A DNA stretch of 64,000 nt from Octopus vulgaris (lineage: Eukaryota), in the NCBI GenBank assembly GCA_951406725.2, contig OX597818.1, forward strand, positions 93,186,001-93,250,000. Reading direction: 5' to 3'. The notes under the pieces are model-generated. The model was not told the DNA's origin. It made no database searches and worked only from the letters and a program-made list of their open reading frames with translations. The stretch's first letter is position 1; every line of letters starts with the position of its first letter. Position numbers and translations under genes: made by a program. Positions 9,780 through 60,410 of the stretch are shown here, piece by piece.

Positions 9780-9975
9780 AAAGGGAAAGTTTACGAAAAT
9801 AAACAAAAGACGAAGGCAGGTGGAGTACAAACAAACAAATGTATTAGTATAGCACTCAGGAATAGAAGTAGAAAAAGTCTTTTACGTTTCAAGCCTACGC
9901 TCTTTGACGGAAAGATACTCAGAAAAAACAAGGAGAGAAAAAAATGTGTGTAGGAGCCAACGATCTATCATGGCG
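9780..9975 (-). mobile_element. Family H1 (about 190 bp) with hammerhead-like motif at 9879-9914
   Basis: Reverse complement of the element at 27435-27615; flanked by TA tracts. Confidence 0.8.
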
Positions 9976-11099
9976 TCCATACACATACACACATATATAT
10001 ATTTATATATATATATATATATATATATATATATATATATATATATATATGTGTGATTGTTTTCCAAAGTGGAGGCGAACACCTTTCTCTATGTATATAT
10101 ATACACACCCACTCACCCATAAATCTAAGCATATTTTGATGATGGTAATGATGAAGATGAAGAGGAGAAGAAGGAGGAGGAGGAAGATGCTATGTAAGCA
10201 CTAACATATTACATATACAATATAACTAACTTACATTTCTGCACATGTAAATCCATTCAAAGCAACAATAACAACCACCACTACAACAACAACAACAACA
10301 ACAACAATATAGGTCAATACTGTTCAATTAAAAGTGGAATTTCTCCAACATTATCTGAAGTTGGACAAGTTTACCAGATAAGAAAGAAAACCGCATTCCT
10401 GTGTGTGAACAGAAGATGGGGAGGGTGGCACCTGATTATATACTGTTTATGGATTCCTGAAGACATTCAATAGTGCTTCATGTGGGTAGGAAGTGTGTTT
10501 GTGTGTGTGTGTGTTTGTGTGTGTGTGTGTGTGTGTGCATGCTAGATATTATAGAAATATTCACACACACACACACAAGCATGTATGTGTATATATATGT
10601 ACACACAGATGTATGTGAGTATATGTGTGTCTGTATATGTATATATATGTGTGTGTGTATGTGTATAATTAATATATATACATATATATAGAGAGAGATA
10701 CTCACACATACACACACATATATATATACTATGTATGTAATATCATCATCATCATCGTTTAACGTACGCTTTTCATGCTGGCATATGTATATATTATATT
10801 ACACAAACAGACACGCCCACACACATATGTATATACACACACACAGACATATATATTAAACATGTGTGTGTATAAATATATATATATATATACATATATA
10901 TATACACTGTTATATGTATATATATGTGTCTGCGCGTTTGTGTGTGCATATTTATATATATATATATATATTTATATATATATATATTTATATTTATATG
11001 TAAGTTTGTACATATATATAGATATGTATTTGATGTATTTGTATATATATGTGTGTGTGTGTGTGTGTGTGTATATATATATATATTCACATACATACA

Positions 11100-11218
11100 T
11101 TTTCTCTCCCTGATTTTTTTCTCTCTCTTTCTGTCAAAGAGCATAGGCTCAAAACGTCAAAGACTTTTCCATTCTTCCTGAGCGTCAAACTAATACACCT
11201 GTTTGTTGCTCTCACCTG
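11100..11218 (+). mobile_element. Family H1 fragment, hammerhead-like motif at 11127-11162
   Basis: cttt ctgtcaaa gagc atag gctc aaaa cg tc aaag. Confidence 0.75.
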
Positions 11219-11544
11219 GTCCCTCACCTGTGGCTAAGTGGTTAGGGTGTTGCACTCATAATAGTAGAAGGCTGAGGTCTCAATTTATGGACTGGGCGAT
11301 ATGTTGTGTTCTTGGGCTGATCACTTCATTTCACGTTGCTCCAGTCCACACATCTGGGAAAAATAAGTAATCCTGCTATTGACTAGTGTGCCATCTAGGA
11401 GGGTGGGGAGTATATATGCCATGGAATCTGGGAAACCCATTTTATAAGCCTATGGCTCAGGAAAGATTTTTTTGATATATGCTATATGATACATATACGT
11501 ACGTACATACATACATACATACATACATACATACATACATATAC

Positions 11545-11900
11545 ATGCGTAGACTGGAGAGAAATGAAGGCAGTATGCTCTTTGGATGTGCAACATCAGT
11601 GTGGATGTACAACAAAGTGCAAATATATTGAAAGAAAAGTTAGGCATAAGAGGAATCGAATGCAGCAAGCAAAAGCGAAGACTACGTTGGTTTGGGTATG
11701 TGATGCATATGAATGAAGACAGCTGCACAAAGAAATGATCACCAAAAGTGGATGGTACCCGCAGAAGAGGGAGCCCCAGGAAAACATAGGATGAAGTGGT
11801 AAGGGCTGATCTCAGGATGTTGGACCTCACAGACGAAATGACAATAGACTGAGATATCTGACAAAATAAGGTTCTTGAGAAGACCCACCCACATCAGTGA
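11545..11900 (+). mobile_element. RTE-clade LINE 3' remnant
   Basis: Frameshifted LERNEGSML...KEKLGIRGI...RRLRWFGYVMHM...GTRRRGSPRKT*DEVVRADLRMLDLT. Confidence 0.85.
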
Positions 11901-14167
11901 AACTGAGTTTTAGAAGCATTGTGTGTTCCACCCATACGTAACAAGAAAACTTTTCACACACAGACCAAACTACATCTCTTCTCTTCCTCACATCACTTTC
12001 ATGCACTATGTACCCAGGTTATCACTACTCACTGCATTTCCCTCCCCCACTCTCTATTCTTGCTTCTTTGGCGATGTCCTGCCACTTATATAATTACATC
12101 CATACCTCAAGGTTATGCCCTGGCATTTGCTACCATCTATCTCTCTCTTCTTTTACTTGACCATTCCATTTATATTCTGATCTCCATTCCTTGTGAGTAT
12201 GCCTGGGCACTTTACTACCATCTCCTTCCTGTGTTCTCTTGCACTCTTGCTATCTCCCACTCTCTCTCTCTCCTTGTGCTCTTCCCTCAGGCTGGGTAAC
12301 CATGTATCTCCTTTACAGCAGCACACATGTTTCTGTCCTCACTCTCTCTCTCTTTCCCCCTTCTCTCTCTCTCTCTGTCTCTGTGGGTAACCTGTTTCTG
12401 TCTCTCTGCCTCACTATATCCTATATCTTTTCATCATCTGAGACAAGATCACCTCCTCCAATACCTACTCCCCTCTCAAAGGATCTTTGTCTTGCAAGTT
12501 ACTTAGTAACCCTGCCAGTGCCAATGCCACATAAAATGGATGCAGTCCACACCATAAAGTGGTTGGCATTCGGAAGGGCATCCAGCTGTAAAAACCTTGG
12601 CAAAACTGACTTTGCTTGTGCTTGTGCCATGTAAAAAGTACTCAGACCACTCTGCTGGGTGGTTGGTGTTATGAAGGGCATCAAGCCATAAAAACTGTGC
12701 CAAAACAGACACAGAAGTCTGGTGCAGGCTCCTGTCAAACTGTCCAACCCATGCTAGCATGGAAGGTGAATGTTAAACGATGCCGATGATGATGATATAT
12801 ATATATATATATATATATATATCAGTAGAGGCTCCAGCACTCAGGTTGTTCAGGCTTAGCCTAAGTATAAATTTAGTAAAGTGAACATGTATTTGCAAGC
12901 TGATTTAATTTCTGTCAACACTCACTTCAAGTATGTACTTGCAGCCAATAACTTGGACTCCTTTTATTGAGCCTGGTTGCAGTTCATTTATTTTGGTTCA
13001 GCATCTGGCAGTTGTCTTAGAGGTATCCTGTGTCAAAAAATATCATTTGTAGCAGCACCTAACTCAGGCTCAGAAGTTACAGACCAAGTTGTTATCTATA
13101 ATCATAAAAATTAAAGGTAATTCAAATTCAATGTTTTCTTGAAACAATAAATTTCTATAGAGATTAGGATTTCAATTTCAATCTATGAAAAGTTTCCCTT
13201 CTACAATATTCTTAAAGGAATGAAAAATTATCCAGCAACTCGGGCTAATACGAACGAGCCTGGTAGGTATAAAAGACTAACTGGCATCTCTTGTCTAGAG
13301 TACAGGCAACAGTCAGATCATTGATGTTTGTTGTGCAGTTCACTGTCATTATTGATTGCTGTTATTCTGTGCATCTGTGTGTAAAGATCAGTTGTGTTTT
13401 GCAGGGTTGCTTTATTTTTAGTCTTAACTTAGAAATGGAGAAAGACAGTGTGCTAAATTAAAAAACTAAGCCATTTGCGGTAGGGAAATTGCAGAAAAAC
13501 TTGAAATTCTTCGAGCAGGCATGTGTATTATGTGAAATCTGTGATGAGTGCAAGTGATGAAATTTGTGATGAGCCCGGGTGACACTGATGACCTGAAGTT
13601 GCCTCTGATATGTATATTTATTTCATCATCATCATTTAATTTCCATTCTGCTTGTTCTATTGCTTGTTTTGGAGTGTTTTCTGTGACTGGATGCCCTTCC
13701 TAACTCCAATCACTTTACAGAGTGTAATGGCTACTTTTTTCATGGCACCAACACAGAGGGGATTACCAAGAAGCTAGAAAAACAAGACAAAGTCCTCTTG
13801 ACTAGGTGGAGTAGTATTGTGAGGGGTCGCTTTGTGTTAGTTAATGAGAGGTTAAAAGAATAATAGAAGGATAGCGATAAATGTCTTGCTCTAGAAGAGA
13901 TACAAGTATTATCCCAGTTGGAGAAGGGAGGAGACTTAGAGAGAGTACAGAGAGTTGGAGAATTGATGATAAATATGTCAGGACATACACTCAAGGCAGA
14001 GTGGAGAATATAGCTGAAGTGATACTCAAGATGGGACTGAGTGGTGAGGAGGACAGATGGAAAAATTTCAAAAGAATGTGAGGAGATGGTTAAATGAAAT
14101 AAATATGGCTGTAATAGTTGAAGCTGATGTAAAGGAATGGTTCAGGATATATACATGTATATATATA

Positions 14168-58739: not shown

Positions 58740-58978
58740 ATTTCTTATTTCATTACTACTCACAAGGGGCTACACACAGAGGGGACAAAGAAGGAGAGAC
58801 AAACAGATTAAGTCGATTATATTGACCCCAGTGCGTAACTGGTACTTATTTAATCGACCCCGAAAGGATGAAAGACAAAGTTGACCTCGGCGGAATTTGA
58901 ACTCAGAATGTAACGGCAGACGAAATACCGCTAAGCATTTCGCCTGGCATGCTAACATTTCTGCCAGATCGCCGCCTT
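58740..58978 (-). mobile_element. SINE family D
   Basis: Matches 42841-43078. Confidence 0.85.
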
Positions 58979-59640
58979 CCATTTCTGTCTATCAAATCTA
59001 CTCAGAAGGTTTGGTCAACCTGGCTATAGTAGAAGACACTTGCCCAAGGTACCATGCAGTGGGACTGAACCCAGAACCAAGTAGATGAAAGCAAACTTCT
59101 TATCACACAGCCATGCCTGCACCTACAATCTTCACCATGATTACCACCAAAACAACACCGGCACACCTACCATTATCTGAAAGGGATCCCACTTCCTCTG
59201 CTTTTGTACAAAACTAAAACCAATGCTTCTTTACTAATTACCACCCCACCCAATATTTTCCAGTAATATGATGTGATGAAGGTGAGGAACCATGTACAAA
59301 CCCTCTTCCTATTACTACAGGGATGGAGGTGAATTCTTTAGTGGGGTCAGATAGCTAATATTTTCTTCCCCTCACATATCTGTTCCCTCCCACGCTAGTG
59401 CAACTATCTAAATAATTAGACAATTAAGGGACCAGTAAGAAAGTTTTTCTAAGTGGTGTCTCATTAACTTAATTTGTCTCATGTTAGGGTTTGATGTTCA
59501 TGCCTTCTGTTTCACACACTTAAAGCTTCAACATCTAGCAGCTGACTTTGTAGAAGCCTACAAGATGATCCACCATCTTCCCAAAATCAACTCTGGTCCC
59601 ATTTTTTAATTCAGTATCTTTATTTCACATGGACTTGCTT

Positions 59641-59879
59641 CATCATCATCATCATCATCATTTAGCGTCCGCTTTCCATGCTAGCATGGGTTGGACGGTT
59701 CAACTGGGGTCTGGGAAACCAGAAGGCTGCACCAGGCCCAGTCTGATCTGGCAATGTTTCTACGGCTGGATGCCCTTCCTAACGCCAACCACTCCGTGAG
59801 TGTAGTGGGTGCTTTTTATGTGCCAGACGGGGCTGGCAAACGGCCACGGTCAGATGGTGCTTTTTACGTGCCACCGGCA
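59641..59879 (-). mobile_element. SINE family B
   Basis: (cat)n followed by the reverse complement of the family B tail. Confidence 0.85.
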
Positions 59880-60227
59880 TAAAATAAAAAATCAGTGTAA
59901 TATTCAATATATATATATATATATATATATATTTAATCATCATCATCATCATTGTTTATTTGCTTTCCATGTTGGCATGAGTTGAGGCTTCATGTATTTG
60001 CCAGTAGGCTGTGATTTGGTCGCATGGCACTGAGCGTTAAAGCACTTGAAAGTTATGGACAGGTAAGGTCTGTCTTATCTGACCATAGCTTTCAGGTGTT
60101 TTAACAGTCAGTGCTTTGAGAGAGTATTCTCCATCTCACCAAATTGCAGCATTATATACATGCATTATATGTGGTTGATAATGTTTATTACAGTGGCACT
60201 GCTATTATTTCATCATTTGCCATGATA

Positions 60228-60410
60228 GATTGCTAGCTACTATACCCTTTTCTATTTTCTCTCCCTGTTTATTTCTGTCTTCCTTTCTGTTGAAGAGCGT
60301 AAGCTTGAAACATAAAAGACTTTCTCACTTCCCAAGCATTAAACTAATACATCTGTTTGTTATTTACACAACCATCTTTGTCTTGTTTTTTTTGTTAATT
60401 CTCACTATAT
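60228..60410 (+). mobile_element. Family H1 element (motif 60283-60318)
   Basis: cttt ctgttgaa gagc gtaa gctt gaaa ca ta aaag. Confidence 0.8.

What the first reader, a model, noticed from the sequence alone, without database searches (positions are those of the whole stretch)
9879..60318. Seven-copy short element with a non-canonical minimal hammerhead whose variation follows hammerhead rules
Seen: family H1 (about 190 bp, mostly in TA tracts) carries CTTT-CTGTNGA-A-GAGC GTAG GCTC-GAAA-CG-TH-AAAG at 9879 (-), 11127, 27295, 27487, 37578, 38098 (-) and 60283. Stem I (CTTT/AAAG) and stem II (GAGC/GCTC) are largely kept. Core position 7 varies freely (A, G, T, C) and the cleavage base is A, T or C but never G, as the NUH rule requires. 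Stem III is reduced to the palindrome ACGT. Established: minimal type I hammerheads of Penelope-like elements have palindromic stem III and work as dimers. Atypical: A6 is U in most copies and there is an extra A after A9. Inference: a non-autonomous, retrozyme-like family with a variant core; whether it cleaves is unknown.
Basis: partly seen in the sequence, partly recalled or inferred. Interest (0 to 1): 0.75.

Follow-up and report, generated by a model that had tools for sequence, protein, structure and literature searches.

The report
Penelope retroelement stubs, altered hammerhead core
The seven short repeats are cut-off tail ends of a protein-coding jumping gene of a known class (Penelope-like), and the self-cutting-RNA motif they carry has one normally fixed base changed throughout a very successful lineage, so it likely cuts weakly or only with help, which is untested.

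Summary
In detail: seven copies (plus an eighth without the motif) carry a minimal type I hammerhead; at least 16,194 exact cores lie in the genome. The reading as a non-autonomous retrozyme does not hold. Longer copies run 5' into the 3' UTR and RT/GIY-YIG ORF of a Neptune-type Penelope-like element; full-length copies have a hammerhead in each pseudo-LTR, about 4.5 kb apart, and end in (TA)n. H1 is their 5'-truncated 3' end. The extra base after A9 and the ACGT palindrome are published features of such hammerheads. Only U6 is atypical: fixed in several subfamilies, the youngest ORF-bearing one included, while relatives keep A6 and one (about 9,400 exact matches) has C4. Between subfamilies the core and stems are frozen and only positions 7 and 17 change, so selection on the fold went on after U6 arose; single copies decay regardless (5 of 7 in the window are damaged). 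'Never G' holds for lineages, not copies. Cleavage is untested. The scan's earlier notes show other hammerheads in this genome, not this one. New variant of a known kind.

The parts
9771..9975 (-). 3' end stub of Penelope-like element (A7-related subfamily); hammerhead 9879-9914 with U4C, G8A and C11.1T changes; ends in (TA)n
11090..11211 (+). stub of an older C17 group, cut short at the 3' end by another repeat; hammerhead 11127-11162 with G8A and G12A
27232..27420 (+). stub of an older T7 subfamily; hammerhead 27295-27330 with G5A and a broken palindrome; its (TA)n tail holds the next copy
27430..27615 (+). best-kept stub (A7 subfamily), 83-96% identical to the 3' ends of longer copies, 8 of 25 of which carry the endonuclease ORF upstream
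27487..27522 (+). complete U6 minimal hammerhead: stem I 4 bp, core CUGUAGA plus extra A, stem II 4 bp with GUAG loop, GAAA, palindromic stem III, A17; predicted cleavage after 27518
   Evidence: fold; cleavage is a prediction
37533..37690 (+). stub of the G7/T17 subfamily, inserted in the TA tract of another repeat; complete U6 hammerhead 37578-37613
37997..38190 (-). stub closest to the A6-bearing group (86% to L187); hammerhead 38097-38132 with C6 and A9G
60214..60410 (+). stub closest to L149 (83%), a copy with the endonuclease ORF upstream; hammerhead 60283-60318 with C11.1T and a broken palindrome

Best explanation
The copies are 5'-truncated 3' ends of autonomous Penelope-like retroelements with Neptune-type features that end in (TA)n tracts, and their U6 hammerhead fold stayed under selection in the copying lineages and likely still cuts the element's RNA, but weakly and as a dimer or with protein help. 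Shown: element anatomy (pseudo-LTR with hammerhead, 5' UTR, RT-linker-GIY-YIG ORF, 3' UTR, second hammerhead, TA tail), U6 in the youngest ORF-bearing lineage, frozen core between subfamilies. Inferred: the element's own endonuclease nicks (TA)n, reverse transcription primes at the UA-rich end and mostly stops 35-130 nt past the cleavage site, perhaps at the 5' end of a transcript starting in the upstream pseudo-LTR, which would give the excess of 170-230-nt stubs; rare cleavage at both hammerheads would give a unit-length RNA that can circularise and yield more-than-unit copies with pseudo-LTRs of variable length. Inserted stubs are dead and decay at random.
For: 8 of the first 30 exact-core copies extend more than 200 nt 5' into shared 3' UTR; 26 of the 30 best endonuclease loci have a U6 hammerhead 441-999 nt downstream, a 27th a damaged one; L250 has hammerheads at 2125 and 6698, pseudo-LTRs 638 nt and 98.4% identical, and a 1,079-codon ORF; L251 has 1,051-nt pseudo-LTRs 99.3% identical; RVT_1 above the Pfam cut-off in 2 of 2 proteins, YIDD, C-x4-C-xx-C and IYC-xx-C-YIG motifs; endonuclease remains upstream of A7 (8 of 25), C7, G7, old T7, A6 and sister-family copies; the pseudo-LTR/5' UTR junction with its short TA run is the same in 3 of 3 full-length copies. 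Selection: on trees built from half the flank columns, 29 core and stem columns show 0-3 shared against 134-137 private changes, held-out flank columns 70-95 against 466-514, p at most 3e-6 in 6 of 6 splits of 128 copies; positions 7 and 17 show 4-6 and 2-4 shared changes, position 6 none; same trend in 53 copies not chosen by core. Stem I outer pair is C-G in H1 and G-C/G-U in the sister family. Published minimal hammerheads of these elements cleave weakly, only as dimers or trimers (PMC4209133).
Against: No cleavage was measured. Changes in the CUGA turn gave low activity in a mutational scan (PMC9901934) and a natural A6C variant cleaves at under 0.1 per min (PMC3088659), so U6 may be inactive. 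Only 3 of 79 stubs begin within 5 nt of the predicted cleavage site, no clear mark of cut templates. A sister lineage with C4 has about 9,400 exact matches, twice the canonical-core count (4,869), so the turn is relaxed in two lineages. The frozen core could reflect protein binding, not catalysis; flanks also hold conserved blocks. The compensated stem I pair is one evolutionary event. GIY-YIG scores below the Pfam cut-off. Only 1 of 3 full-length ORFs checked is open from its ATG. Stub lengths are two-peaked (0 of 30 between 101 and 200 nt of 5' extent), which plain random truncation does not explain.
Confidence: 0.8

Rival explanations
1. Same element, but the U6 (and C4) hammerhead no longer cuts: the fold is kept as a binding or dimerisation site for the element's reverse transcriptase, or as part of the priming signal.
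For: Two large lineages changed the CUGA turn independently; such changes lower activity in vitro; most stubs copy straight through an intact motif and 3 of 79 start at the cleavage site; Naiad elements spread without a canonical hammerhead (PMC8557442).
Against: G8, G12, G5, C3, A9, A13, A14 and U16.1 show no shared change among 159 H1 copies, while positions 7 and 17 change repeatedly and no G17 lineage was seen, the pattern expected of catalysis; low activity is usual for these ribozymes; a U4C variant is reported to suffice in vivo in a viroid.
Confidence: 0.25
2. The 190-nt units also spread by themselves as a non-autonomous, SINE- or retrozyme-like family that borrows the Penelope enzymes.
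For: 22 of 30 copies have at most 100 nt upstream of the hammerhead and none 101-200; 5' ends crowd near a short motif shared with the sister family; one head-to-tail pair in the window.
Against: Each subfamily examined has long members reaching the 3' UTR or ORF; the window pair are two subfamilies; no same-strand pair about 190 nt apart among the first 100 exact matches (read by eye); true retrozymes have canonical cores in tandem arrays (PMC7229834), as seen for another family here (L031).
Confidence: 0.1
3. The motif is a vestige under no selection; the apparent rules are chance differences between a few master elements.
For: 5 of 7 window copies are damaged at core positions; no compensatory change among them; G is the commonest stray base at 17 in a young subfamily.
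Against: Damage is private to single copies; shared changes avoid the 29 core and stem columns.
Confidence: 0.04

Closest known systems
Minimal hammerheads of metazoan Penelope-like elements (Cervera and de la Pena 2014, PMC4209133; read parts 1-2 of 4 and searched the supplementary PDF)
   Same: Type I, no stem III beyond a palindrome, unpaired base between 9 and 10.1, G10.1-C11.1 pair, U-rich 5' flank, in both pseudo-LTRs about 3-5 kb apart, most copies single and truncated; their consensus is CUGANGAH...GAAA N palindrome NUH.
   Different: U at position 6 instead of A; stem II only 4 bp (they report 7-8 bp in Schistosoma); no octopus entry and no core CUGU found in their supplement.
Neptune clade of Penelope-like elements (as described in Craig et al. 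2021, PMC8557442; passages read)
   Same: [quoted passage not shown]
   Different: Clade not confirmed by an RT tree with named references (Nematis shares the linker); long C/T-rich 3' UTR; variant core.
Small hammerhead variants of Penelope-like retrotransposons that cleave as dimers (Lunse, Weinberg, Breaker, RNA Biol 14:1499; not held; seen only as a citation and through the review PMC6765202, section 11 part 2)
   Same: Diminished stem III, association with these elements, predicted dimer cleavage.
   Different: Whether their set includes U6 cores or this family could not be checked.
Metazoan non-LTR retrozymes (Cervera and de la Pena 2020, PMC7229834; passages read)
   Same: Short units with a type I hammerhead.
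   Different: Retrozymes are non-coding tandem repeats with canonical cores and circular RNAs; H1 is dispersed, T-rich, 5'-ragged and continuous with a coding element.
Natural core variants of hammerheads (Perreault et al. 2011, PMC3088659; passages read)
   Same: A natural change at position 6 (A6C) and at position 4 (U4C) with lowered activity is on record.
   Different: Those are rare single examples; the term A6U does not occur in that text; here the change is fixed in tens of thousands of copies.

Membership tests
Penelope-like element (endonuclease-bearing) | Single ORF with RT and GIY-YIG endonuclease | tested here: met
   1,079-codon ORF in L250; RVT_1 over cut-off, GIY-YIG weak (E 0.07, below cut-off); about 30% identity to a second family that passes the GIY-YIG cut-off
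Penelope-like element (endonuclease-bearing) | Pseudo-LTRs, partial tandems and inverted 5' stubs | tested here: met
   L250 638 nt 98.4%, L251 1,051 nt 99.3%; tandem with inverted stub in L210
Penelope-like element (endonuclease-bearing) | Hammerhead in each pseudo-LTR | tested here: met
   L250, L251, L253 each have two in the sense strand
Penelope-like element (endonuclease-bearing) | Intron in the 5' UTR (seen in some members) | tested here: inconclusive
   Contigs of four runs showed no GT-AG joint; a T-rich part was uncovered
Neptune clade | CX2-5CxxC linker before the endonuclease, cysteine pair inside GIY-YIG | tested here: met
   C-x4-C-xx-C at residue 836 and IYC-xx-C...YIG at 874-891
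Neptune clade | RT groups with named Neptune references, apart from Nematis | not tested
   No named reference sequences were fetched; the endonuclease tree holds only this genome's copies and is mostly unresolved
Minimal type I hammerhead | Stems I and II, palindromic stem III, extra base 9/10.1, G10.1-C11.1, NUH site | tested here: met
Minimal type I hammerhead | Core CUGANGA with A6 | tested here: not met
   U6 in 96 of the first 100 exact matches, A6 in 2; 46 of 53 copies not chosen by core
Minimal type I hammerhead | Self-cleavage at position 17 (as dimer) | not testable with these tools
   No raw RNA reads were listed
Non-LTR retrozyme | Non-coding unit independent of a coding element | tested here: not met
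   Continuous with 3' UTR and ORF
Non-LTR retrozyme | Tandem arrays of like monomers with canonical hammerheads | tested here: not met
   Window pair are unlike subfamilies; none among first 100 matches
Non-LTR retrozyme | Abundant monomer-length circular RNA | not testable with these tools
   Only contigs available

The most novel reading that the evidence does not exclude
A recently active retroelement lineage has spread to tens of thousands of copies with a hammerhead whose catalytic turn is broken (U6; C4 in a sister lineage) while the general acid and base, the stems and the dimer palindrome stay frozen: either the element's own protein completes the active site, or the fold has become a non-cutting RNA handle. 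Near-isogenic A6, U6 and C4 versions in one genome make the open question of what Penelope hammerheads do directly testable.
Probability: 0.3. Interest if true: 0.7.

Novelty: new variant of a known kind. Interest (0 to 1): 0.4.

Why it matters
The role of hammerheads in Penelope-like elements is unsettled (PMC8557442 calls it unclear; in vitro rates are very low). Here one genome holds successful lineages with the canonical core, with U6 and with C4, plus evidence that selection on the rest of the fold went on. Comparing them would show whether cleavage, protein-assisted cleavage or only the fold is needed. Descriptor searches that demand CUGA would miss most of these motifs. The element class and the minimal hammerhead are otherwise well known, so the surprise is moderate.

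Tried and rejected
Retrozyme reading: rejected (see rivals). First Penelope family found by Pfam GIY-YIG (781-aa frames) is not the parent: it has its own U3-A8 hammerhead and a different 3' end; the parent was found through copies with long 5' extensions. A possible G17 lineage (3 of 10 G17 loci shared flanks) was rejected: 97 A, 3 G among the first 100 of that subfamily. A pile-up of stubs starting at the cleavage site was sought and not found (3 of 79; about seven values near -165 there, and the 202 for window copy 27295, are artefacts of repeat-rich references). Folding: 46-nt pieces keep stems I and II; a strand-swapped dimer scored -10.9 kcal/mol against -5.9 for each monomer, no gain; with 60 nt of downstream sequence 2 of 4 examples refold so that a downstream GAGC takes stem II, a possible switch that I did not test further. 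RNA: no RNA holder listed; contigs from four runs guessed to be RNA cover the pseudo-LTR, 5' UTR and ORF start but cannot show ends or strand. Endonuclease tree (14 rows): 7 of 10 inner branches open and one row came from the wrong hit, so it does not order A6 and U6; A6 as ancestral is inferred from the published consensus and from A6 in both outlying groups. A Pol III SINE reading (B-box-like GCTCGAAAC, recalled consensus) was set aside because of long T runs and the coding parent. Pfam found nothing in the short ORF piece of L210. Literature searches found no paper describing an octopus hammerhead or a natural A6U hammerhead; most subscription papers and Lunse et al. are not held, and figures of supplements could not be seen. 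Tallies of the first 100 rows were made by eye.
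Full report
Observation. An eighth copy without the hammerhead lies at about 19256-19357. Positions 7 and 17 vary as stated; position 6 is U in six and C in one. Only the copies at 27487 and 37578 keep the whole core; the other five have changes at U4, G5, G8, A9, C11.1 or G12, mostly transitions. Stems pair in 54 of 56 cells without a compensatory change. 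The family is large: 16,194 exact matches to the 28-nt core in the 2.8-Gb genome, none for the reversed control. The genome looks octopus-like (my inference from size and repeats, also the wording of two earlier scan notes); I did not determine the species.

What it is. The 30 closest copies are short and sit in TA tracts, with a fixed 3' end and ragged 5' ends. Among the first 30 exact-core copies on contig 1, 8 extend more than 200 nt upstream into a shared sequence. Locus L210 shows what that is: an RT and GIY-YIG reading frame, a C/T-rich 3' UTR, the H1 sequence, a TA run, a short inverted stub and a second truncated copy. A search with its endonuclease region gave 16,180 candidates; the 150 scored are 91-96% identical apart from the query. 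Of the 30 loci taken, 26 have a U6 hammerhead 441-999 nt downstream, one has a damaged one and three are broken off. L250 is complete: pseudo-LTRs of 638 nt (98.4% identical), hammerheads 4,573 nt apart, a 1,079-codon ORF and a (TA)n tail. L251 and L253 have the same plan; L251 and L252 have a stop at codon 50. The protein scores above the Pfam RVT_1 cut-off and weakly for GIY-YIG and has the C-x4-C-xx-C linker and inner cysteine pair that PMC8557442 (passages) gives for Neptune and Nematis. The window's subfamilies have such parents too: 8 of 25 long copies of the 27487 type carry the endonuclease upstream, and endonuclease remains precede C7, G7, older T7, A6 and sister-family copies (one or two loci each). 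H1 is therefore the 3' end of autonomous Penelope-like elements. The pair at 27295/27487 are two subfamilies in one TA tract.

The hammerhead. Cervera and de la Pena (PMC4209133; parts 1-2 of 4 and a search of the supplementary PDF) list the base between 9 and 10.1, the G10.1-C11.1 pair and the palindrome as conserved features, and note that most such motifs are single, truncated copies. So only U6 is atypical. It is present in 96 of the first 100 exact matches (by eye) and 46 of 53 copies not chosen by their core. Relatives keep A6: a small group with the same loop (L153, L187, L190, L294) and a sister family with a three-base loop (4,869 exact matches with A6). About 9,400 further matches have C4, nearly all in that sister family.

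Do the changes follow hammerhead rules? In single copies, no: they decay. G17 occurs in 132 copies (about 0.8% of exact-core copies) against 44 for A13G, and in one young subfamily G is the only stray base at 17 (3 of the first 100). Between lineages, yes. From 268 distinct copies, 204 had a recognisable motif and enough flank to align. On a tree from flank columns, 159 H1 copies show no shared change in 29 core and stem columns (150 private), against 194 shared and 1,162 private in 140 flank columns; for the 53 copies not chosen by core the figures are 2/97 and 119/542, p 5e-6. To remove circularity I built trees from half the flank columns and tested the other half on 128 copies without A6: p at most 3e-6 in 6 of 6 splits, with shared changes at positions 7 and 17 and none at 6. 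Caveats: T-rich flanks align poorly, the sample is weighted to two young subfamilies, and inclusion needed a recognisable motif. Lineages with A, U and probably C at 17 exist, none with G. One stem I pair is compensated between H1 and the sister family, a single event.

How it likely works. Shown: anatomy, targets, selection. Inferred: the endonuclease nicks (TA)n and reverse transcription primes at the UA-rich 3' end. The junction between upstream pseudo-LTR and 5' UTR, with a short TA run, is identical in 3 of 3 full-length copies, so it is part of the template. Most stubs begin 34-130 nt upstream of the cleavage site (51 of 79) and only 3 begin at it; 5' extents are two-peaked. I read this as priming on a mostly uncut RNA that starts, or stalls the enzyme, about 100 nt upstream of the site. 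Occasional cleavage at both hammerheads, paired through the palindrome, would give the unit-length RNA of the published circle model. U6 should slow cleavage: changes in the CUGA turn gave low activity in PMC9901934 (passages) and natural A6C cleaves at under 0.1 per min in PMC3088659 (passages). Whether it still cuts is open; I put weak or assisted cleavage at about 0.65 and a non-cutting fold at about 0.25. RNA data could not help: no run on record as RNA, contigs only.

Novelty. Penelope-like elements, including recently active families, are already counted in an octopus repeat annotation (PMC13282606, passages; 'ribozyme' and 'Neptune' do not occur in its main text). Eight searches found no description of this family's hammerhead or of a natural A6U core, but Lunse et al., the likeliest place, is not held. 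The scan's notes had nothing by sequence and two notes on a different, permuted hammerhead in this genome. Verdict: new variant of a known kind; interest 0.4.

Noticed in passing
G000, e.g. L315-L324: Sister family of the same element type with a U4C core (CCGACGA), about 9,400 exact matches, more than its canonical-core form.
   Followed up: partly
L031:3082-4512 (+) and 7334-7693 of the - strand: Tandem 359-bp repeats, each with a canonical type I hammerhead: a likely true non-LTR retrozyme; not in the window.
   Followed up: partly
L077, L082, L036 and others: A second Neptune-type family with many 781-aa open frames and a U3-A8 minimal hammerhead near its 3' end, also ending in (TA)n.
   Followed up: partly
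L091 about 2050-2090; L092 about 2500-2550: Further Penelope-like families whose 3' ends hold hammerhead-like motifs with odd cores (A3 with U8 in L091; GCAA for GAAA in L092), seen by eye, one copy each.
   Followed up: no
L050, L068: Another repeat with a U3-A8 type I hammerhead and CGCG palindrome.
   Followed up: no
window 54877-55070 (+): Full-length U2 snRNA match, 160.6 bits.
   Followed up: no
window 28446-30084: Near-perfect inverted repeat of about 1.6 kb, arms 99% complementary; a smaller one at 1889-2720.
   Followed up: no
window 26422-26655 (-): Decayed GIY-YIG remnant of another Penelope-like element, opposite in strand to the nearby H1 copies.
   Followed up: partly
window 6582-7493 (+) and 31333-31857 (+): Reading frames that look like a Tc1/mariner transposase and a Helitron-type helicase fragment (labels recalled, not searched).
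   Followed up: no
window 3134-3540, 15202-15630, 21700-22116, 37438-37908, 55077-55479 and others: A high-copy SINE-like family with an inner TA tract (families D14-D20); the 37578 stub is inserted in one such tract.
   Followed up: no
window 27540-27547 and the same place in other copies: A conserved downstream GAGC block, shared with the sister family, can pair with the 3' strand of stem II in folding predictions; possible off-switch.
   Followed up: partly
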